A model generated the notes under the pieces. The model ran no database searches and was not told the origin of the DNA. It saw only the letters and a list, made by a program, of their open reading frames with translations. The position numbers and the translations under genes are program-made. 64,000 bases of DNA from Mobula hypostoma (Eukaryota): NCBI RefSeq assembly GCF_963921235.1, contig NC_086097.1:64792001-64856000 (forward strand). Reading direction: 5' to 3'. Positions 3,836 through 52,397 of this stretch are shown here, one piece after another; position 1 is the first letter of the stretch, and each line of letters begins with the position of its first letter.

Positions 3836-3935
3836 ACAACACACACAAAATGCTGCAGGAACTCAGCAGGTCAGACAGCATCTATGGAAATGAATAAACT
3901 GTTGATGGTCATGCCGAGACCCTTCTTGGAACTCA
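3836..3935 (-). repeat. Penelope-like element 3' tail fragment with degraded hammerhead motif
   Basis: acacacaaaatgctgcaggaactcagcaggtcagacagcatctatgg...ccgagacccttc is homologous to 11800-11895. Confidence 0.75.
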
Positions 3936-4339: not shown

Positions 4340-4557
4340 GGAACAAAGAAAAACAAGCTACTAGAGGTACTCAGCAGGTAAAGTAGCATCTGTGGGGATA
4401 GAAGGATGCTTGATATTTCGGATTGAGACCCTGCATTAGGATGAGTGTCTCGATGCAAGCTCTACACCTGAAACATCAATGGATCTTTTGCTGCCACATA
4501 TGCTGCCTGACCAGCTGAGGTGGACCAGAAATATTGTTTTAATTTGCTCCAGATTTT
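4340..4557. mobile_element. Small foldback element made of two opposed Penelope tails
   Basis: Left arm ctcagcaggtaaagtagcatctgtgg...tttcggattgagaccctgcattagg. Right arm ctcgatgcaagctctacacctgaaacatcaa...ccacatatgctgcctgaccagctgag is its degraded reverse complement. Confidence 0.65.
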
Positions 4558-4639
4558 GTACACTCCGTTAGTAATCAAGAAGTTTAAGACTATTTTTAAA
4601 AAAAAACATCAATGAACACTTAACAGCAGGGCTACGGTA

Positions 4640-5799: not shown

Positions 5800-8700
5800 A
5801 GTCGTGAGTTAGATAGCAGGGAAAAATTCAGGCATAAAAGAGAGACACTGCCTGGGGGCAGCAAGAGTGGTCGTGCCTCTGGCAGGGAGTCTGGCCCTAT
5901 GACTCAGAAGGGTAGGGAAAGGAAGAAGGCAGCAGTACCCTATAGTTAGGGGGTCAGACAGGTGATTCTGTGGACGCAGGAAAGAAACATGGATGATAGA
6001 TTACCTCCCAGGTGCCAGGTCCAGGATGTCTCTGATCGCATCCACGATATCCTGAAGTGGAAAGTTGAACAGCTAGAGGTCATGGTAGATATTGGTATCA
6101 ACGACAAAGGTAGGAAAAGGAAGGAGGTCCTGAAAACAGACTACAGGGAGTTAGGAAGGAAGTTGAGAAGCAGGACCTCAAAGGTAGTAATCTTGGGATT
6201 GCTGCCTGTGCCACACAACAATGAGCATAGGAATAGAGTGAGGTGGAGGATAAATGTGTGGCTGAAGGATTAGAGCAGGACGCAGGGATTCAGATTTCTG
6301 GATCATTGGGACCTCTTTTGGGACAACTGTGACCTGTACAAAAAGGATGGGTTGCACTTGAATCTGGGAGGGACCAATATCCTGGTAGGGAGGTTTGCAA
6401 AGGCTATCGGGGAGAGTTTAAATTAGAATTGCTGGGGAGTGGGATCCGAACTGAAGAGACAGAGAAAGGGGGGGTTGGCTCACAAATAGAGAAAGCAAGT
6501 AGACAGTGCGAGAGGGAGGATAGGCAGCTGATAGAGAAGGGATACGCTCAAACCGATGGTTTGAGATGTGTCTATTTTAATGCAAGGAGTATTATGAACA
6601 AAGCGGATGAGCTGAGAGCATGGATCAGTACTTGGAGCTATGATGTTGTAGCCATTACAGAGACTTGGATGGCTCAGGGGCAGGAATGGTTACTTCGAGT
6701 GCCAGGTTTTAGATGTTTCAGGAAGGACAGGGAGGGAGGCAAAAGAGGTGGGGGCATGGCACTGCTGATCAGAGATAATGTCATGGCTTCAGAAAAGGAG
6801 GAAGTCATGGAGGGATTGTCTACTGAGTCTTTGTGGGTGGATATTAGAAACAGGAAGGGGTCAATAACTCTACTGGGTGTTTTTTTATAGACCACCCAAT
6901 AGTAACAGGGACATCGAGGAGCAGATAGGGATACAGATTCTGGAAAGGTGTAAAAATAACAGGGTTGTCGTGGTGGCAGATATTAATTTCCCAAATATTG
7001 ATTGGCATCTTCCTGGAGCAAGGGGTTTAGATGGGGTGGAGTTTGTAAGGTGTGTTCAGGAAGGCTTTCCGACACAATATGTAGACAGGCCAACAAGAGG
7101 AGAAGCTGTACTTGATCTCGTATTGGGAAATGAACCTGGTTAGGTGCCAGGTCTCACAGTGGGCGAGCATTTTGAAGATAATGATCACAATTCTATCTCC
7201 TTTACCATAGCATTGGATGGGGATAGGAACAGACAAGTTAGAAAAGCGTTTAATTGGGGTAAAGGGAAATATGAAGCTATCAGGCAGGAACTTGGAAGTA
7301 TAAATTGGGTCAGATGTTCTCACGGAAACGTGTGGCAGAAATGTGGCAAATGTTCAGGGAATATTTGTGTGGTGTTCTGCATAGGTATGCTTCAATGAGA
7401 CAGGGAAAGGATGGTAGGGTACAGGAACCGTGATGTACAAAGGCTGTTGAAAATCAAGTCAAGAAGAAAAGAAAAGCTTATGAAAGGTTCAAAAGACTAG
7501 ATAATGATAGAGATCTAGAAGATTATAAGGCTAGCAGGAAGGAGCTTAAGAATGAAATTAGGAGAGCCAGAAGGGGCCATGAGAAGGCCTTTGGCGAGCA
7601 GGATTAAAGAAGAACCCAAGGCATTCTACAAGTATGTGAAGAGCAAGAGGATAAGGTGTGAGAGAATAGGACCAATCAGATATGTCAGTGGAAAAATGTG
7701 TATGGAACCAGAGGAGATAGCAGAGGTACTTAATGAATACTAGCTTCAGTATTCACTACGGAAAAGGATCTTGGTGATTGTAGGGATGACTTACAGTGAG
7801 TTGAAAAGCTTGAGCATATAGGCATTAAGCAAGAGGATGTGCTGGAGCTTTTGGAATGCATCAAGTTGGATAAGTCTCTGGGACCAGATGAGAGGTGCGC
7901 CAAGCTACTGTGGGAGGCGAGGGAGGAGATTGCTGAGCCTCTGGCAATGATCTTTGCATCATCAACGGGGAAGGGAGAGGTTCCGGAGGATTGGAGGATT
8001 GCAGTTGTTGTTCCCTTATTCAAGAAAGGGAGTAGAGATAGCCCAGGAAGTTATAGACCAGTGAGTCTTACTTCAGTGGTTGGTAAGTTGATGGAAAAGA
8101 TCCTGAGAGGCAGGATTTATGAACATTTGGAGAGGCATAATATGATTAGGAAGTCAGCATGGCTTTGTCAAAGGCAGGTCGTGCCTCACAAGCCTGATTG
8201 AATTTTTTGAGGATGTGACTAAACACATTGATGAAGGTAGAGCAGTAGATGTAGTGTATATGGATTTCAGCAAGGCATTTGATAAGGTACCCTATGCAAG
8301 GCTTATTGAGAAAGTACAGAGGCATGGGATCCAAGAGAACCTTGCTTTGTGGATCCAGAATTGGCTTGCCCACAGAAGGCAAAGAGTGGTTGAAGACGGG
8401 TCATATTCTGCATGGAGGTCGGTGACCAGTGGTGTGCCTCAAGGATCTGTTCTGGGACCCCTTCTCTTCGTGATTTTTATAAATGACCTGGATGAGGAAG
8501 TGGAGGGATGAGTTAGTAAATTTGCTGGTGACACAAAGTTTGGGGGTGTTGTGGATAGTGTGGAGGGTTGTCAGAGGTTACAGTGGGACATCGATAGGAT
8601 ACAAAACTGGGCTGAGAAGTGGTAGATGGAGTTCAACCCATATAAGTGTGAAGTGGTTTATTTTGGTAGGTCAAATATGATGGCAGAATATATTATTAAT

Positions 8701-9825: not shown

Positions 9826-10170
9826 CAACACAAAATGCTAGATGAAGTCAGCAAATCAGGCAGCATTTATGGAAGGGAGTAAACAGTCAACATTCCGGGC
9901 TGGGGGGGTGAGTGTAGAGGTGACAGAGTACAAGCTGGCAAGTGATAGGAGAATCCAGGAGAGAGGGAAGGTAGGGGAGGGGGGAATGAAGTGAGGATAT
10001 TGGGAAAAGGCTGAAGAAGAAGGAATCTAGTAATAGAGGACAGTGCACCATGGGAGAAAGGAAAGGAGGAATGGCAACAGAGGTGATGGGTGTGTGAGGA
10101 GAAAGAAGAAGTGAAAGGGAAGCCAGAATAGGGAGTGGAAAAATAGAGAAGAGGAGTAGACTGAGGGCAT
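9826..10170 (-). repeat. Penelope-like 3' region fragment
   Basis: aacacaaaatgctagatgaagtcagc...gcagcatttatgg followed by a purine-rich tract homologous to 11800-12190. Confidence 0.65.
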
Positions 10171-10925: not shown

Positions 10926-11863
10926 ACCACTTTTTGTATGCTTTTCCATTCTTGGGTATTTCAGTAATGTTATAAATATGTTGTTTGATTATGCGGTCTT
11001 TGTTTAAATAATTCATTACAGGTTGTATGTAAAGGTACATGAGTAGCATATATCATTACACCACCACATCATAAGTGCATGCCTCACTAAAGTTAAAAAA
11101 TGAAACTGCACGTTATTCCTCGGTCCATGTTATTCTTTCAAATAGTTTTAGGTTCTGGAATTAGAAAACATGACAGTGGTAATGAGAAAGTTTTAAATGA
11201 ACCCGAGACAACTACCTACCTGTTTAAGCACAGTGAGACATTTGATCTTTTTAAAAATAGCAGAATGTATTCTTGGAAGGGAAGAGACGATCAAGTTAAA
11301 AAAGTCAGAAAACAGATGAAAATCACGGGTTCATAAACAGTGCATACCAGGTGATAATAAATAAATAAATAAGCAGAAATGCCTGGCTATGTCAGAAAGA
11401 TAGACATATTTGATTGCACAAGAAATAACTGGTTAAGGTATACTGAATGAATTCAGCCGTACTTTGTAGCAAATGAAATAGTCACTGCAAAGCAAATGCC
11501 AATTTTGCTGAGTGTAATAGGTGGAAGAGCATGTAGTTTGCTTGGAAGTTTAACTGCTTCAACCAAACCAGCCGAAATGAGCTTTTCTGATATCATGAAA
11601 GTAACGCTGGAACATTTAGAACCAAAACCATTGTTGATTGCACAACACTTTAGGCGTCATAACCAGAATCAAAATGAAGGGGAGTCCATTTCACTGTACG
11701 TGGCTGAATTGAAGACTTTGCCTGAGCATTGTCAGTTCAATGATGGGCTTAATGATGCACTGAGAGATCAACAGGAATTCTGCAGATGCTGGAAATTCAA
11801 GCAACACACATCAAAGTTGCTGGTGAACGCAGCAGGCCAGGCAGCATCTGTAGGAAGAGCTGC

Positions 11864-11899
11864 AGTCGACGTTTCAGGCCGAGACCCTTTGTCAGGACT
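11864..11899 (-). ncRNA. Hammerhead motif, left arm, core mutated (CUGACAA)
   Basis: Reverse complement is agtc-CTGACAA-agggtctcggcct-GAAA-c-GTC-gact. Position 11890 changes the conserved G8 to A. Confidence 0.7.
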
Positions 11900-12195
11900 A
11901 ACTGAAGGAAGAGTGAGTAAGGGATTTGAAAGTTGGAGGGGGAGGGGGAGATCCAAAATGATAGGAGAAGACAGGAGGGGGAGGGATAGAGCCAAGAGCT
12001 GGACAGGTGATTGGCAAAAGGGATACGAGAGGATCATGGGACAGGAGGTCCGGGAAGAAAGACAAGGAGGTGGGGGGGACCTAGAGGATGGGCAAGAGGT
12101 ATATTCGGAGGGACAGAGGGAGAAAAAGGAGAGTGAGAGAAAGAATGTGTGCATAAAAATAAGTAACAGATGGGGTACGAGGGGGAGGTGGGGCC

Positions 12196-12504
12196 TTAGC
12201 GGAAGTTAGAGAAGTCAATGTTCATGCCATCAGGTTGGAGGCTACCCAGATGGAATATAAGGTGTTGTTCCTCCAACCTGAGTGTGGCTTCATCTTTACA
12301 GTAGAGGAGGCCGTGGATAAACATGTCAGAATGGGATGTGGAATTAAAATGTGTGGCCACTGGGAGATCCTGCTTTCTCTGGCGGATAGAGCGTAGATGT
12401 TCAGCAAAGCGGTCTCCCAGTCTGCGTCGGGTCTCGCCAATATATAAAAGGCCACATCGGGAGCACCGGACGCAGTATATCACCCCAGTCAACTCAAAGG
12501 TGAA
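12196..12504 (-). pseudogene. Penelope GIY-YIG endonuclease domain, left arm
   Basis: Mirror copy VIYCVRCSRCGLLYIGETRRRL... with a 6-nt in-frame deletion relative to the right arm. Confidence 0.9.
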
Positions 12505-12510
12505 CAACAC

Positions 12511-12825
12511 TTCACCTGTGAGTCGACTGGGGTGATATACTGCGTCCGGTGCTCCGGATGTGGCCTTTTATATATTGGCGAGACCCGACGCAGACTGGGA
12601 GACCGCTTTGCTGAACATCTACGCTCTATCCGCCAGAGAAAGCAGGATCTCCCAGTGGCCACACATTTTAATGCCACATCCCATTCCCATTCTGACATGT
12701 CTATCCACGGCCTCCTCTACTGTAAAGATGAAGCCACACTCAGGTTGGAGGAACAACACCTTATATTCCGTCTGGGTAGCCTCCAACCTGATGGCATGAA
12801 CATCGACTTCTCTAACTTCCACTAA
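12511..12825 (+). pseudogene. Penelope GIY-YIG endonuclease domain (5'-truncated), right arm
   Basis: FTCESTGVIYCVRCSGCGLLYIGETRRRLGDRFAEHLRSI...VATHFN...LGSLQPDGMN shows the IY-CxxC-YIGET pattern of PLE endonucleases. The frame is open to the stop at 12825. Confidence 0.9.
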
Positions 12826-13120
12826 GGCCCCACCTCCCCCTCGTACCCCATCTGTTACTTATTTTTATGCACACATTCTTTCTCTCACTCTCCTTTTTCT
12901 CCCTCTGTCCCTCTGAATATACCTCTTGCCCATCCTCTGGGTTCCCCCCCACCCCTGTCTTTCTTCCCGGACCTCCTGTCCCATGATCCTCTCGTATCCC
13001 TTTTGCCAATCACCTGTCCAGCTCTTGGCTCTATCCCTCCCCCTCCTGTCTTCTCCTATCATTTTGGATCTACCCCTCCCCCTCCAACTTTCAAATCCCT
13101 TACTCACTCTTCCTTCAGTT

Positions 13121-13156
13121 AGTCCTGACGAAGGGTCTCGGCCTGAAACGTCGACT
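13121..13156 (+). ncRNA. Minimal type I hammerhead ribozyme motif (intact core)
   Basis: agtc-CTGACGA-agggtctcggcct-GAAA-c-GTC-gact: stem I agtc/gact, CUGANGA box, stem II agg/cct, GAAA box, vestigial stem III and a GUC cleavage triplet. This is the architecture known from Penelope-like element hammerheads. Confidence 0.8.
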
Positions 13157-16100
13157 GCACCTCTTCCTACAGATGCTGCCTGGCCTGCTGCGTTCACCAG
13201 CAACTTTGATGAGTGTTCACTGAGAGATCATTTAGTTTGTGGAATCTTACAAGAAAGCATTCAAAAATGGCTCCTAACTGAAGCACAACTCACCTTTAAA
13301 AGAGCAGTTGAAGTCATTGTATCAACGGAAACAGCAGAGAAAGACACAATTGAGTTGCAGTCAGGAATGAAAGAGAGCTTGAACAAAACTACAAATGTTG
13401 TATATCCAAACAGAAACCGGCCTGGCCAAACAAAATGTGTTACTGTCGGGCCTCACATACAGTATATCAGACCATTGTAGGTTTAATGGTGAGCTTGCAG
13501 AAAATGCAATAAAGTAGGACACATACAAAAAACATGTCAGGCAGACAAAAATAAATGGATTGCACAGGGAAGAGAAAAAGACAAAAAGTCAAGTTGCAGT
13601 TGCAAAAATAGAACTAATCTTCATGCTGTTGATGAAAAAATCTGATGAGAATGACACAGGACTGAATAGCCTTGAGATTTAAAATGTGAAAGCTAACAAC
13701 AGATGAGCAAAATGGCTTGCCCCAGAAGTGAACAGCAAATTAATTAAAATACAATTGGACACTGGCTCAGCTGCTTCAGTTATTCAACATAATGAATTTG
13801 AATGGCATTTCAAAGATACTGAACTAAAACCTGCCGATATCCAACTAAGAACTTGCTGTGTACTGGAGAAAAACTAACTGTTGTGGGAACGACAGTTGTA
13901 ACAGTGAAATACAATTCCAACAAGCCAAATTGGGTGTTTATGTGGTAAATACTAAAGGACCAGCATTATGGGGCTGTGATTGGCTGAGACAACTACAACT
14001 TGATTTAAGATCCATCCACTATTTGCATACCACATGCCCTGCAAAGGAGTCAACTGAAAGTGAATTAAGAAAGGTACTAGATAATACCACAGTAGTGTTC
14101 AAGGATATCATTGGTAAACTTGAACTTATTGAAGGTAAAACAGTGTTAAATGAAAATGCCACACCCAAGTTTTACAAAGCCCACCTGGTTCCTTATACAA
14201 TCTGTAATAAAGCAGCTGGTGAGCTAGATCACATGGAGCTGAAGGCATTCTTTCCGATGTTGAGTGGAGCCCATGGGCCATGCCAGTGGTCCCAGTAGCT
14301 AAGAAGAATGGGTCTGTCAGCATCTGTGGTAATTTTAAGGTTACCATCAACCCAGTACGAGGACACCTTCTCAAACCTTTCTGGAGGAATCACTTCAGCA
14401 AAATAGACTTAGCTGAAGCCTACCTACAAATGAAGGTGGAAGAAGATGCTGCAGAGAAAAGTTTTTTGTATTTCTCACAATAAGTACTCACAAATAGCTT
14501 TATCACTATAATAGGCTTATTTTTGGAATAGCATCTACATCTGCACTCTGGCAGAAAGCTATAAACCAGGTGCTGCAAGGCTGCCCAGGCACTCAGTTCT
14601 ACCTGGATGGCACAATTGTTACTAGTAAGGATGACAAGGAACATCTCCAAAATCTCAAAACTGTGTTGAAAAGATTAGGAGATTATGGGTTTGGAGCACA
14701 ACCCGACAAATGTGAATTCTTTAAAACAAACATTACTCACTGTGGTCACACCATTGACACACAAGCATTACACAAGTGTGTTGAGAAAAGTTAAATAGTA
14801 GTGTATACCCCAAGGCCAAAGGATGTGTTACAGTTGCAATCCTTTTTAGGATTTGTCAATTGCTATAACAGCTTCCTGCCAAACCTGGCTACTGTGCTTC
14901 ACCCCTTGAACTCATTACTACAGGGAAGAGATGGCAATAGACAAAAAAGTGTGAGGTGGCTTTCCAAGAGGTAAAGGAAATGGTGACATCAGACACTGTA
15001 CTCTCACATTATGATCCATATCGTCCAGTGAAGCTTGCCTGAGATGCCTCGCTTATGGAATAGATGTCATGTCACGTGTTCTGAGTGTGGAAGTATTCCA
15101 TAGCTATTGCATCTCGTTCCCTTACTACTGCAGAGAAAAATTACACACAAATTGACAGAGAGGATTTGTGCCTGGTTTGATGTAAGAAATGTTTCAATCA
15201 GTACTTGTATGGGACAGAGTTTACCCTCATTACTGATCATCATTCAATATTGTCCATTTTCAATCCACAGAAGGGTGTTCCACTATCAGCAGCAGAACAA
15301 ATGCAGAGAGGGGCTTGCTTCCTTGGGAGGACATAAGTAGAAGATTGAATTCAAGAAGACAACTAATCATGGAAATGCTGATGGATTGTCCCATTTACCC
15401 TTGGAAACGGAAATACCTGAAAAAATTACAAAAGAGGGCATTCCTCTTGATGTATTCTCCCTAATGCAAATTGAAAGTCTCCCTATTATGGCAGAGATGA
15501 TCCAAGGGAAACCAGAAAAGATCCCACTCTGTCTCTGGTCTAAATGGCAGCCCAAAATGGCTTGAATGTGCAGCTGAAATCCCAGTTGCTCCATTTTTAC
15601 CAGTGCCGGGATGAACTTGCCCTTGACAGAGGTTGTCTTATGTGGGGATTGACAGTTGTTGCACATTCCAAGCTGAGAGCTAAAGTGCTGGAGGAGCTGC
15701 ATGCCTGTCATCTAGGCTTGGTCAAAATGAAAGCATTGGCTCAAATCATTGCCTGATGGCCTGCGTAGATCAACAGATCGAAGAGCTTGCCATGTTCTGT
15801 TCACCATGCCAACATGTCCAGAAGATGCCAAGAGCAGCACTTCTCCATCCCTGGCAGAGGATTCATGTGGATTTTGCCGATACAGGCACATATTTCTTGC
15901 TAGTAGTGGATGCAGCTACAACATGGCCAAAAGTGTTCACAATAGCCTCCACTACAGCCTGGCACACTGTTGATGGGTTGAGAAGCCTTCTCTCAAGGAC
16001 TGGTGTCCCAGAACACTTAGTCAGTGACAGTGGACCACAGTCTGTTGCGATCATTCCTGAACAGTTTCAGTCATTCCTGAAAATGAATGGAATAAGACAT

Positions 16101-16488
16101 ATTACATCTGTACTGTTTCACCTAGCTACAAAGAGCTTGGTGGAAAGGTTTGTCCAGAGTACTGCGAGCAATGTCAGCAGAATACACTACGCTGACACTG
16201 AATCAGAAGCTTGCCAATTTCCTCCTTGCAGATCACAATGCAACACAGTCCACAACCAACAATTCACCAGCTATGCTGCTCCTGAGTTGTCCCTTGCACT
16301 CACGCATGGATCTCCTCAAACCCAGAATCTCAGAAGGTGTATACAGGACAAACAGCTAAGAAAAATTGAGGGCTCCTCAAATAAGGAGGTTCGATGCTTC
16401 ACTCCTGGACAAGATGTCCTGGCGAGGGACTACAGAAGTGATCAAAAGTAGGTATTTGGAAAGATTAAGGACAGAACTGGGCCACTCT

Positions 16489-18569: not shown

Positions 18570-21343
18570 AGATTAAAGTTATATTTGAACATATGCGGAA
18601 TATGGAGTAAGGTAGATGATCTTGTAAAGCATTTAGAGGTTGTTAGGAATGACATTGGGGATTACTCAGTTGTGGCTGAAAGAAGATCATAGCTGCAGTT
18701 TCATGTTGAAGGATACACATTGTTTTGAAAGGTCAGACATGTAGACAGAGCAGGTGGAGTGGCTCTGTTGGTACAAATTAAAATCAAATCCTTAGAAAGC
18801 AGTGACATAGGATTGGAAGATGTAGAGTCCTTGTGGGTAGAGTTAAGAAACAGTGAGAGTGAAAAGACCCTGATTGGAGTTATATACAGACCTCTAAACA
18901 ATAGCCAGGATGTGGGCAACAAATTACAATGGGAGATAGAAGAGGCATGTCAGTAGGGCAATGTTATGATAGTGATGGGGGATTTCAATATGCAATAGGT
19001 TGGGAAAATCAGGTTGGTGCTGGAATTTGTAGAATGCATACAAGATGACTTTTTAGAGCAGCTTGTGGTTGAGCCACTGAGGAAAGGCTATTCTGGATTG
19101 TGTACTGTGTAATGAACCAGATTTGATTTTGAGGCTTAAGGGAAAGGAACACTTAGGAGACAGTGATCATAATATAATAGACTTCACCCTGCAATTTGAC
19201 TGGGAGGTGCTAAAGTCAAATACATCAGTATTACAGCAGAGTAAAGGGAATTATAGAGGCTTGAAAGAGTAGCTGGCCAAAGTTCACTGGAAGGGGATGC
19301 TAGCAGGGATGATAGCAGAACAGTGATGGCTGGAGTTTCTGGAAGCAATTCAAAAGATGTGGGATAGATACATCCCAAAGTAGAAGAATTACCCTTAAGG
19401 CAAGATGATACAGCCGTGGCTGATAAAGGAAGTGAAAACAACATAAAATTAAAAGGGAGTACATATAAAAGAACAAAAATTAGTGGGAAGTTAGAGAATT
19501 GGGAAGATTTTAAAAACCAACAGAGGGTAACTAAAAAGCCATAAGAAGGGAAGAGATGCAATAAGCTAGCCAAACATTTTTTTCCAGATATGTAAATGGT
19601 AAAAGAGAGGTGAGAGTAGATATTGGACTGCTTGGAAATGATGCTGGAGAGGTGGTAATGGTAGATGAACTAAATAAGCATTTTGCATCTATCTTCACTT
19701 TGGAAAACACTAGCAGTACACTGGAAATTCCAGAGTGCCAGGGGGCAGAAGTGAGTGCAGTTGCTATTAATAAGGTGAAGGTGTTTGGGAAGCTGAAAGG
19801 TTTGAAGCTGGATAAGTCATCTGGACCAGATGGACTACACCCCAGGTTTCGCATAAAGGTGGTCAGGTAGATTGTGGAGGCATTAGTAATGATCTTTCAA
19901 GAATCACTAGAGTCTGTCATGGTTTTAGAGGACTGGAAAATTGCAAATGTCATTCCACTCTTCAAGGAGGGAGGATAGCAGAAGAAAGGAAATTATAGGT
20001 CAATTAGCCTGACCTCAGTGGTTGGGAAAATGTTGGAGTCCATTATTAAAAATGAGGTTTTGGGGTTCTAGAAGGCACGTGCTAAGATAGGCCAACGTAA
20101 GCATGGATTCCTTGAGGGAAAATCTTGCATGATAAACATGTTGAAATTCTTTAAGGAAATAACAGGCCATATAAACAAAAGAATGTCAGTGGATGTTGTG
20201 TGCTTTGATTTTCAGAGGGCCTTTGACAAGGCGCCGTTCATGAGTCTGTTTAACAAACTAAGAGCCCATGGTATTATAGGAAAGATACTAGCATGTATAG
20301 TATATTGGCTGATTGGCAGGAGGCAAGGAGTGGGAGTAAGGGGAGCCTTTTCTGGTTGTCTGCCTGTGACTAGTGGTGTTGTACAGGGGTTTATATTAGA
20401 ACTGCTTTTGATGTTGTGTGTCAATAATTTGGATGATGGAATTGACGGCTTAGAGGCCAAGTTTGTGGATGATACGAAGATAGGTGAAGGGGCAGGTAGT
20501 GTTGAAGAAACAGGGAGGCTGCAGAGGACTTACACATATTAGGAGAGTGGACAAAGAAGTGTCAGATGGAATTCAGTGTCAGGAAGTGTATGGTCATGCA
20601 TTTTGACAAAAGAAAGAAAAATATAGGCTATTTTCTAAATGGGAGAGAACATTCAAAAATCAGAGGTGCAATGGGACTTGTGAGTCCTTGGCAGGCTTCC
20701 TTAAGGTTAATTTGCAGGTTGAATCTGTGGTGAGGATGGCAAATGCAATATTAGCATTCATTTCAAGAGGACTACAACATAAAAGCAAAGATGTAATTTT
20801 GAGATTTTTATAAGACATCGGTAAGGCATCTGTAAGCTGTTATGTGCCCCTTATTTACGAAAGGATGTGCTGGAGAGGGTTCATAGGGGTTTCACAAGAA
20901 TGGTTGCAGGAATGAGAAGATTACCACGTTAGGACTGATTGATGGCTTCGGGCCTGTACTCATGGAATTCAGAAGAATGATGGGAGAGCCTCATTGAAGT
21001 CTATCAAATGTTGAAAGGCCTCCATAGAGTGGATGGTGGGAGAATCTAGAACCAGAGGCCACAGCCTCAGAATATAGGGATATCCATTTGGAACAGAGAT
21101 GAGGAAAAATTTATTTAGCCAGAGAATGGTGAATCTGTGGAATTCTTTGCTGTGGAGGCCAAGTCATTGGGTATATTTAAGGCAGAGGTTGATATATTCT
21201 TGATTACTCAGGGTATGAAGAATTACAGGGAGAAGGCAGGAGATTGGGGCTGAAAGGGAAATGGATCAGTCAGAATAAAATGGTGTAACAGACTCAATAG
21301 ACCAAATAACCTAATACTGCTCCCATATCTTATGGTCTTATGG
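18570..21343 (+). mobile_element. CR1 LINE ORF2 and 3' end, decayed
   Basis: ESLWVELRN, GVIYRP, KSSGPDGLHPR, FDFQRAFDK, KFVDDTKIG; tail cttatggtcttatgg. Confidence 0.9.
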
Positions 21344-33339: not shown

Positions 33340-33945
33340 TAGGGGTAAGAGGGGAGCCGGAATGGGAAATGGAAAAAGAAAGGATTGGAGGGCGGAAATT
33401 ACCAGGTTAGAGAAAGTTTGAGTCCTGACAAGGGATTCCAGCCCGAAACGTTAACTGATCATTTCCATGGATGCTGCCCGACCTGTTGAGTTCCTCCAGC
33501 GTGTTGTGAGTGTTACTTAGAGAAAGTGATGTTCATACCATCAGGTTGGAGGCTTAGCCAATTGCTTTTACCCCTTCCCATTTACCCTTTCTCTTCACCT
33601 CACCTGCCTTTCACCTCCCTCTGTTGGCCCACTTCCTTCCCTTTCTCCCGTGGTCCACTCTTCTCTCCTATCAGAATCCTTCTTCAGCCCTTTACCTTTT
33701 CCACCTAACACCTCCCAGCTTCTCACTTCCTACCCCTTCCCTGAGCCACCTATCTTCCCCCTCAGCTGGCTTCACCTATTACCTTTCTTGTTTGTACTCC
33801 TTCCCTTCCCCCACCTTCTTATTCTGGCTTGTTCCGGCTTCTTTTCCAGTCTTGATGAAGGGTCTCAGCCTGAAATGTTGACCCTTTATCCCTTTCCATA
33901 GATGTTGCCTGAACTGCTGAGCTTCTCCAGTATTTTGTGTACATG
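33340..33945. mobile_element. Older head-to-head Penelope 3' fragments with a nested 99-bp hammerhead unit
   Basis: Minus arm about 33340-33556 (gatgttcataccatcaggttggaggct, as at 12218-12245). Plus arm about 33557-33945 ends in agtcttgatgaagggtctcagcctgaaatgttgac...tattttgtgt. Confidence 0.75.
33418..33516 (+). mobile_element. 99-bp hammerhead-plus-tail insertion with 11-bp TSD
   Basis: ttagagaaagt occurs at 33407-33417 and 33517-33527. The insert begins ttg-agtc-CTGACAA-gggattccagccc-GAAA-c-GTT-aact. Confidence 0.8.
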
Positions 33946-52124: not shown

Positions 52125-52397
52125 ATAAACCCAAGAGATTCCACAGATGCTGGAAATCCAGAGCAACACACTCAAATTGCAGAAGGAACTCAGCAGGTCA
52201 AGCAGCATCTATAGAGGGGAATAAGGAGTCGACGCTTCGGGCCAAGACTGTCTATCAGGACTCGCTTCATCAGGAATTGCCCCAAATCATTGAGTATTTA
52301 TTCCCTGTCATAGATGCTGACTGACTTGCTGAATTCTTCCAATATTTTGTGTGTGTTGTTCAAGATTTCCATCATCTGCAGATTCTCTTGTGTTTAG
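52125..52397. mobile_element. About 270-bp foldback of two opposed Penelope tails
   Basis: The left end aaacccaagagattccacagatgctggaaatc pairs with the right end gatttccatcatctgcagattctcttgtgttt. Degraded hammerhead motifs meet at the centre, about 52262. Confidence 0.8.

What the first reader, a model, noticed from the sequence alone, without database searches (positions are those of the whole stretch)
13121..13156. Intact minimal hammerhead ribozyme at the palindrome tip
Seen: agtc CTGACGA agggtctcggcct GAAA c GTC gact. All conserved hammerhead core nucleotides and a GUC triplet are present, with a vestigial self-complementary stem III. Known: minimal type I hammerheads occur in the terminal repeats of Penelope-like elements and are thought to cleave as dimers. 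Inference: this copy may still be catalytically competent, cutting after 13152, about 65 nt from the element end.
Basis: partly seen in the sequence, partly recalled or inferred. Interest (0 to 1): 0.7.

Follow-up and report, generated by a model that had tools for sequence, protein, structure and literature searches.

The report
Ray Penelope stub's minimal hammerhead
This is a real copy, with an unbroken core, of the tiny self-cutting RNA motif that Penelope-like jumping genes are already known to carry, but it sits in a cut-short leftover of a very abundant family, likely in a ray genome, and likely does not cut at this site.

Summary
The motif is there as described (13121-13156). It is a minimal type I hammerhead in the end repeat of a Penelope-like element (GIY-YIG remnant upstream; Neptune clade inferred from ray homologs). 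The element is a 1,447-bp head-to-head pair of 5'-truncated ends (11771-13217) with a 13-bp target duplication and a one-sided 32-nt tail, inserted in an LTR-retrotransposon relic. This architecture and this motif class are published (PMC4209133, PMC8557442).

Corrections: the motif lies near the outer end, not the palindrome centre. Stem II is predicted to close with G-U after an extra A, not A-U. The mirror copy has lost G8.

'Intact' is not special: tens of thousands of contigs per run carry the family, most of the depth keeps the core, and core CpGs decay about as fast as loop CpGs. Cutting here is unlikely. There is no same-strand partner, the monomer is predicted to fold into a core-blocking rod, and read-through RNA would bury the motif in a ~700-bp hairpin. 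No usable RNA test was available. The scan has noted this motif class in other shark or ray windows. Ordinary; interest 0.15.

The parts
13121..13156 (+). Minimal type I hammerhead, core complete. Stem I 13121-24/13153-56; CUGACGA 13125-31; extra A 13132; stem II 13133-36/13141-44 (G-U closing pair); GAAA 13145-48; palindromic ACGU 13148-51; predicted cut after C13152
11864..11899 (-). Mirror copy of the hammerhead with G8 changed to A at 11890 (CpG-type change), likely inactive
   Evidence: G8 mutation abolishes cleavage of a PLE hammerhead (PMC11167929, G8C)
12505..13217 (+). Right arm: 3' part of a Penelope-like element (endonuclease C-terminus, pyrimidine-rich region, hammerhead, short end without tail)
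11771..12504 (-). Left arm: inverted copy of the same 3' part, 96.6% identical over 709 columns, with the longer end
11771..11802 (-). 32-nt tail, present at this end only
   Evidence: two end classes family-wide near 11773 and 11799-11800 (table 7)
12505..12825 (+). GIY-YIG endonuclease remnant (no reverse transcriptase left); 92% identical to a Mobula hypostoma protein that carries the Cys linker of Neptune-type elements
   Evidence: (PF01541, 23.4 bits, cutoff 22.6)
11758..11770 (+). Target-site duplication, left copy (13 bp)
13218..13230 (+). Target-site duplication, right copy (13 bp)
   Evidence: 456 contigs run from this place into left-flank-like sequence, i.e. empty-site copies of the host repeat (table 7)
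13218..16451 (+). Decayed LTR retrotransposon (RT then integrase, likely Ty3/Gypsy) into which the palindrome inserted; it continues left of 11770
   Evidence: (RVT_1 in 14498-14791; rve in 15684-16448, below its cutoff)

Best explanation
The 36 bases are a core-complete minimal hammerhead carried passively in the end repeat of a truncated Penelope-like insertion; the motif likely works only in the RNA of an active parent element, paired with a second copy or helped by the element's protein, and this copy is likely silent. Shown: the motif, the flanking endonuclease remnant, the inverted partner arm, the target duplication, the tail, the very high abundance and the CpG-type decay. Inferred from published PLE hammerheads: in tandem transcripts two motifs would swap strands, forming stem I and the ACGU stem III between copies, and cut slowly after GUC. 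Inferred from folding: a lone copy pairs G5-A6-C7-G8 with the CGUC cut-site strand and stays off, and RNA read through both arms forms a ~700-bp hairpin that hides it. The copy is unbroken most likely because the insertion is fairly young (arms about 3% apart), not because the host keeps it.
For: PLE context: GIY-YIG remnant, ray homologs of RT-linker-EN type, inverted partner plus one-sided tail as described in PMC8557442 and PMC3846280. Anatomy fits the min-HHR of PMC4209133: extra base after A9, palindromic 15.2-16.2. Abundance: 78,175 contigs of run X1 lay on 281 bases and 58,409 of X4 on 190 bases. Decay: in X1, G8 is changed in 7.1% of depth, other core or stem CpG letters in 6.5-8.3%, loop CpG letters in 8.3% and 10.9%; about two thirds of depth would keep six decay-prone positions if they vary independently. 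Lineage-level conservation: flanks carry variants at 14-75% (13087-13113, 13158-13170), while inside the motif only N7 (15%) and 11.1 (20%) exceed CpG-like levels, and both are structure-compatible; related sequences part from this one at 13156-57 and resume at the same tail. Folding: core-blocking helix 0.96-0.98; active dimer 10.5 kcal/mol above two monomers; 36 of 36 nt paired with the left arm at probability 1.0 in a read-through RNA. Published: a single S. mansoni min-HHR showed no cleavage and dimers little; the Anolis PLE hammerhead cut only with protein, was dispensable for insertion in vitro, and no RNA reads ended at its cut site.
Against: All catalytic letters are present, and a transcript starting inside the right arm (PLE promoters lie in the end repeat, PMC6765202) would escape the long hairpin and could meet a partner RNA or the protein in trans. 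Nearest-neighbour energies omit tertiary contacts and Mg2+, so they understate active folds. In X9, G8 is changed less often (1.7%) than the other CpG letters (2.1-4.0%). Contig depth is biased towards the reference and is no copy number. No RNA data tested this locus.
Confidence: 0.85

Rival explanations
1. This copy is transcribed outward from a promoter in the right arm and is cut after 13152 in vivo, in trans with another family RNA or on the element's protein.
For: Core complete; the family is abundant enough to supply partners; protein-assisted cleavage is shown for the Anolis element.
Against: No sign of transcription. The one run laid that is on record as RNA held 6 contigs at depth 2-7, and the 3 covering position 11.1 differ from this copy there. 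No loose-end pile at 13152-53 among the 12 best-supported of 590 rows. G-U instead of the conserved G10.1-C11.1 pair; core-blocking fold.
Confidence: 0.07
2. In this subfamily the motif no longer cuts at all, even in the parent element, and is kept as a promoter, translation or protein-binding sequence.
For: U at 11.1 dominates depth in all 5 genomic-type runs with coverage (C in 19.7, 20.8, 11.1, 2.6 and 2.6%). Hammerhead mutants transpose normally in vitro. Naiad PLEs thrive without canonical hammerheads.
Against: All catalytic letters remain the family majority while the flanks vary; the two lineage-level variants are at tolerant positions.
Confidence: 0.06
3. A chance look-alike of the hammerhead core, or an assembly artefact of the palindrome.
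For: The core letters alone occur at chance level; no Rfam match; covariation among window copies not above shuffles; no contig spans the whole stretch laid.
Against: The full descriptor is rare by chance. The position matches the known place in PLE end repeats. The arms differ by 14 substitutions plus indels, and the insert has a clean 13-bp duplication.
Confidence: 0.02

Closest known systems
Minimal type I hammerheads (min-HHR) of metazoan Penelope-like elements (Cervera and De la Pena 2014, PMC4209133; parts 1-2 of 4 read, covering results and discussion)
   Same: Type I topology, full core, 4-5 bp stem I, extra nucleotide between 9 and 10.1, palindromic 15.2-16.2 without loop 3, location in the PLE end repeat. 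Opposite-strand pairs and scattered single copies from truncated PLEs are described there; fish Xena, Poseidon and Neptune elements are named.
   Different: Stem II is 4 bp (7-8 bp in Schistosoma, 6 bp in D. virilis) and closes with G-U, not the highly conserved G10.1-C11.1. No shark or ray term was found in the 2 supplement files searched; a third file could not be searched.
PAc (Poseidon of Anolis carolinensis) hammerhead and tail (Frangieh et al. 2024, PMC11167929; parts 1-2 of 4 read)
   Same: Hammerhead shortly before two alternative ends separated by a 30-40 nt tail; both DNA strands are cut and extended, which would give outward-facing arms.
   Different: PAc is Penelope/Poseidon clade and full length; this one is a truncated stub, likely Neptune clade, with no protein of its own.
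Complex EN+ PLE insertions with inverted 5'-truncated copy and optional tail (PMC8557442, PMC3846280; passages read)
   Same: Head-to-head inverted copy, tail at one end only (32 nt here; 31 in Pen2a_Av), short target duplication.
   Different: Both arms are truncated at nearly the same point inside the endonuclease region; the duplication is 13 bp (8-10 bp in the rotifer examples).
Non-LTR retrozymes (bioRxiv 10.64898/2026.07.22.740005; part 1 of 5 and passages read)
   Same: Type I hammerheads derived from PLE end repeats; found in the one chondrichthyan sampled.
   Different: Defined by tandem same-strand units, each with a hammerhead; this locus is an inverted pair with one broken copy.

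Membership tests
min-HHR of PLEs | Core CUGANGA ... GAAA ... UH complete | tested here: met
min-HHR of PLEs | Type I topology with short stem I (4-5 bp) | tested here: met
   4 Watson-Crick pairs plus a possible U-G; pair probabilities 0.65-0.89
min-HHR of PLEs | [quoted passage not shown] | tested here: met
   Register with unpaired A13132 is favoured 0.94 to 0.02; the natural C/U variation at 13144 pairs only with G13133
min-HHR of PLEs | Highly conserved G10.1-C11.1 pair (a consensus trend, not a strict rule) | tested here: inconclusive
   This copy and most family depth have G-U; G-C in 2.6-20.8% of depth in 5 runs and in 2 of 10 window copies
min-HHR of PLEs | Palindromic 15.2-16.2 with no stable helix III | tested here: met
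   ACGU at 13148-51
min-HHR of PLEs | Located in a PLE end repeat downstream of a GIY-YIG domain | tested here: met
min-HHR of PLEs | Compensatory changes in stems among copies | tested here: inconclusive
   2 of 8 pairs with a two-sided change among 10 decayed window copies; 353 of 500 shuffles reach this. Family tables show one one-sided change in stem II
min-HHR of PLEs | Self-cleavage as a dimer | not testable with these tools
   Needs a bench assay; energies are only a guide
EN+ Penelope-like element | C-terminal GIY-YIG endonuclease | tested here: met
   PF01541 above cutoff
EN+ Penelope-like element | Telomerase-like RT in the same ORF | tested here: inconclusive
   Absent from this truncated copy; an RT-like C-terminal part precedes the domain in the 92% homolog P0001, judged by eye, with no RVT_1 hit
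EN+ Penelope-like element | Inverted truncated partner, one-sided 30-40 nt tail, target duplication | tested here: met
Neptune clade | CX2-5CxxC linker between RT and EN | tested here: inconclusive
   Present in homologs P0001, P0002, P0004 and P0012, outside the part kept in the window. Nematis shares such a linker; no tree was built
Non-LTR retrozyme | At least two tandem same-strand units with complete hammerheads | tested here: not met
   One complete motif in the window; the partner is inverted and broken
Rfam hammerhead families | Score at or near the gathering threshold | tested here: not met

The most novel reading that the evidence does not exclude
This ray subfamily spread to very high copy number with a weakened stem II (G-U for G-C) and a built-in off fold in which the catalytic core pairs with its own cut site. 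Its hammerhead would be a protein-gated switch, opened only on the dimeric element protein, and solo copies such as this one, transcribed outward from the end repeat, would be cut in trans and so trim host RNAs at many loci.
Probability: 0.06. Interest if true: 0.5.

Novelty: new member of a known kind. Interest (0 to 1): 0.15.

Why it matters
Little by itself: it is one of a very large number of near-identical copies of a published motif class. What PLE hammerheads do in vivo is still open (PMC8557442), and this abundant family, with natural G-U and G-C forms of stem II, would be usable material for that question. A full-length tandem member would be a better test object than this stub.

Tried and rejected
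Rfam: no hammerhead family at either threshold; the miRNA hits at 12465-12550 are just the palindrome centre. No whole genome is held, so no genome-wide copy count or alignment was possible. Exact-pattern scans of metagenome and viral contigs: 0 matches each. Raw-read runs X21 and X22 laid 0 reads, so they test nothing. X9 is only guessed to be RNA and X18 had 6 low-depth contigs; contigs cannot show RNA ends, so neither is used as evidence of expression. My first idea that U11.1 is a private mutation of this insertion was rejected: it is the majority state by depth. The A-U closed stem II register was rejected. The fold of the 36-mer is no more stable than shuffles (z -0.37), so stability is no evidence. 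Lunse et al. (dimer cleavage of PLE hammerheads) is not held; I saw only its citation and the account in the review PMC6765202. Passages of PMC2837043 and PMC544870 gave no measurement of a G10.1-U11.1 pair, so its effect on rate is unquantified here. Searches listed no paper devoted to shark or ray PLE hammerheads; the library lacks most subscription journals and Repbase, so this is no proof of absence. No target duplication of 7 bp or more was found around the two smaller head-to-head relics.

Full report
Observation. They form a type I hammerhead without a real helix III: stem I AGUC/GACU, core CUGACGA, a stem II hairpin, GAAA, one CG step and the GUC triplet, with the predicted cut after 13152. 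The core letters alone are at chance level in this window (10 matches, 6.77 expected). With stems required, my descriptor finds this one place, against 0.024 per shuffled window (500 shuffles; the descriptor was written after seeing the motif). Rfam does not recognise it.

Context. The motif lies near the outer end of the right arm of a long inverted repeat centred at 12505-12510. The arms are 96.6% identical over 709 columns. They differ by 14 counted substitutions, 6 of them CpG transitions, plus a 6-nt indel and a small ragged patch. Each arm reads outward: the C-terminal part of a GIY-YIG endonuclease (PF01541, 23.4 bits, right arm scanned), a pyrimidine-rich stretch, the hammerhead and a short end. 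The insert spans 11771-13217 between 13-bp duplications at 11758-11770 and 13218-13230. The left end carries 32 more bases than the right. The flanks belong to a decayed LTR retrotransposon with RT before integrase; 456 contigs of run X1 continue from 13218 into sequence like the left flank, as empty-site copies would.

Identity. The endonuclease piece found 19 homologs among 82 candidates. The best are from Mobula hypostoma (92%) and Hypanus sabinus (85%), so the host is likely a ray. These homologs carry a Cys linker before the endonuclease, the mark of Neptune (and Nematis) elements. An inverted truncated partner with a 30-40 bp tail at one end is the described PLE insertion form (PMC8557442, PMC3846280; passages). 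Across the family two end classes appear, at 11773 (404 contigs in X4) and 11799-11800 (310 contigs). They fit the two reverse-transcription start sites shown for an Anolis PLE (PMC11167929).

Match to the known class. Cervera and De la Pena 2014 (PMC4209133, results and discussion read) define minimal PLE hammerheads by an extra base after A9, a G10.1-C11.1 pair and a palindromic 15.2-16.2. They report them in fish Xena, Poseidon and Neptune elements, as scattered singles and as opposite-strand pairs. This motif has the extra base and the palindrome. Folding favours stem II as G13133-U13144, G-C, G-C, U-G (0.94) over an A-U closed register (0.02), so the closing pair is G-U, a departure from the consensus. 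It is not a private change: C stands at 13144 in only 19.7% (X1), 20.8% (X9), 11.1% (X4), 2.6% (X11) and 2.6% (X17) of depth (from; depth is biased towards the reference).

Is 'intact' special? No. 78,175 contigs of X1 and 6,546 of X9 lay on 13020-13300 (the other two runs laid none), and 58,409, 3,751, 3,142 and 6 contigs of four more runs on the left-arm end. Within the motif, the differences above 3% are all at CpG sites or the 13144-13145 step. In X1, G8 is changed in 7.1% of depth, C15.2, G16.2, C17 and G1.1 in 6.5-8.3%, and the loop CpG in 8.3% and 10.9%. About 0.67 of depth would keep six decay-prone positions if independent (0.86 in X9). Genomic copies therefore decay about neutrally, and most still look intact.

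Conservation is seen only at the level of parent lineages. The flanks carry variants at 14-75%, related sequences part at 13156-57 and rejoin at the same tail, and the two larger variants inside the motif (N7, 11.1) are compatible with the fold. The loose ends at 13121-22 are mixed, and part may be copies that simply begin there. Against this reading, covariation among the 10 window copies does not exceed shuffles (2 of 8 pairs, 353 of 500 shuffles), though 9 of the 10 have a broken core.

Could this copy cut? Published minimal PLE hammerheads did not cut as monomers and cut poorly as dimers. The Anolis one needed the element's protein, was dispensable for insertion in vitro, and left no RNA ends at its site. 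Here the only close partner is on the other strand and lacks G8. The monomer is predicted to pair G5-A6-C7-G8 with the CGUC strand (0.96-0.98). The strand-swapped active dimer lies 10.5 kcal/mol above two monomers for the 36-mer and 18.5 for the 128-nt end. A read-through RNA pairs all 36 bases with the left arm. These energies omit tertiary contacts, so they rank folds only roughly. An RNA that starts inside the right arm would escape the hairpin, which leaves a small chance of cutting in trans. No loose-end pile at 13152-53 is among the 12 best-supported of 590 rows. The available RNA data are contigs and cannot test ends or strand.

Mechanism, committed. In the parent element the motif likely cuts slowly after GUC, in tandem transcripts or on the protein (inferred). 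The insertion likely arose by priming at both target nicks, or by fold-back of one cDNA; this locus cannot tell these apart (inferred). The copy has since decayed neutrally and is likely silent (0.85).

Novelty. A new member of a known kind. I found no paper devoted to ray PLE hammerheads, nor shark terms in 2 of 3 supplement files of PMC4209133; the unseen file, bioRxiv supplements, Repbase and Lunse et al. may cover it. The scan has reported the same motif class in several other shark or ray windows; these are unchecked notes and not independent support. The hammerhead numbering and the roles of core positions are partly recalled and partly from PMC6155905 (passages). Interest 0.15.

Noticed in passing
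window 12497-12518: The palindrome centre may fall on a short natural inverted repeat of the element: the homolog's QVRQHFTC stretch could encode a 7-bp self-complementary pair around the six unpaired bases. This would offer microhomology for joining or fold-back. Inferred from protein only.
   Followed up: partly
window 13172-13217 and 11771-11802: The end region lists no variant above 3%, so it appears at least as conserved as the hammerhead (local alignments thin out near the end). With the tail it folds into a hairpin (z -1.85), a candidate start region for reverse transcription.
   Followed up: partly
window 3836-3933, 4357-4550, 9826-9904, 33420-33518, 33847-33932, 52135-52386: Eight older, decayed hammerhead-tail copies; two pairs (about 4340-4560 and 52130-52395) are short head-to-head palindromes centred at or near the motif.
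   Followed up: partly
runs X1 and X9 laid on window 13020-13300: A few contigs show short direct duplications of the motif (13155 back to 13121: 2 contigs in X1, 1 in X9; also 13199 back to 13123). Such loci would be natural cis dimers and better test objects.
   Followed up: no
window 13150-13155: GUCGAC across the cut site is a second palindrome that could pair between molecules and compete with the active dimer.
   Followed up: partly
proteins: The endonuclease remnant of this family turns up inside several predicted ray proteins named as host genes (for example mucin-2, ABHD14A and neuromedin-U receptor isoforms), either exonised repeats or annotation errors.
   Followed up: no
window 6333-8511, 19184-20542 and others: Many LINE remnants (AP endonuclease, RT) fill the window.
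   Followed up: no
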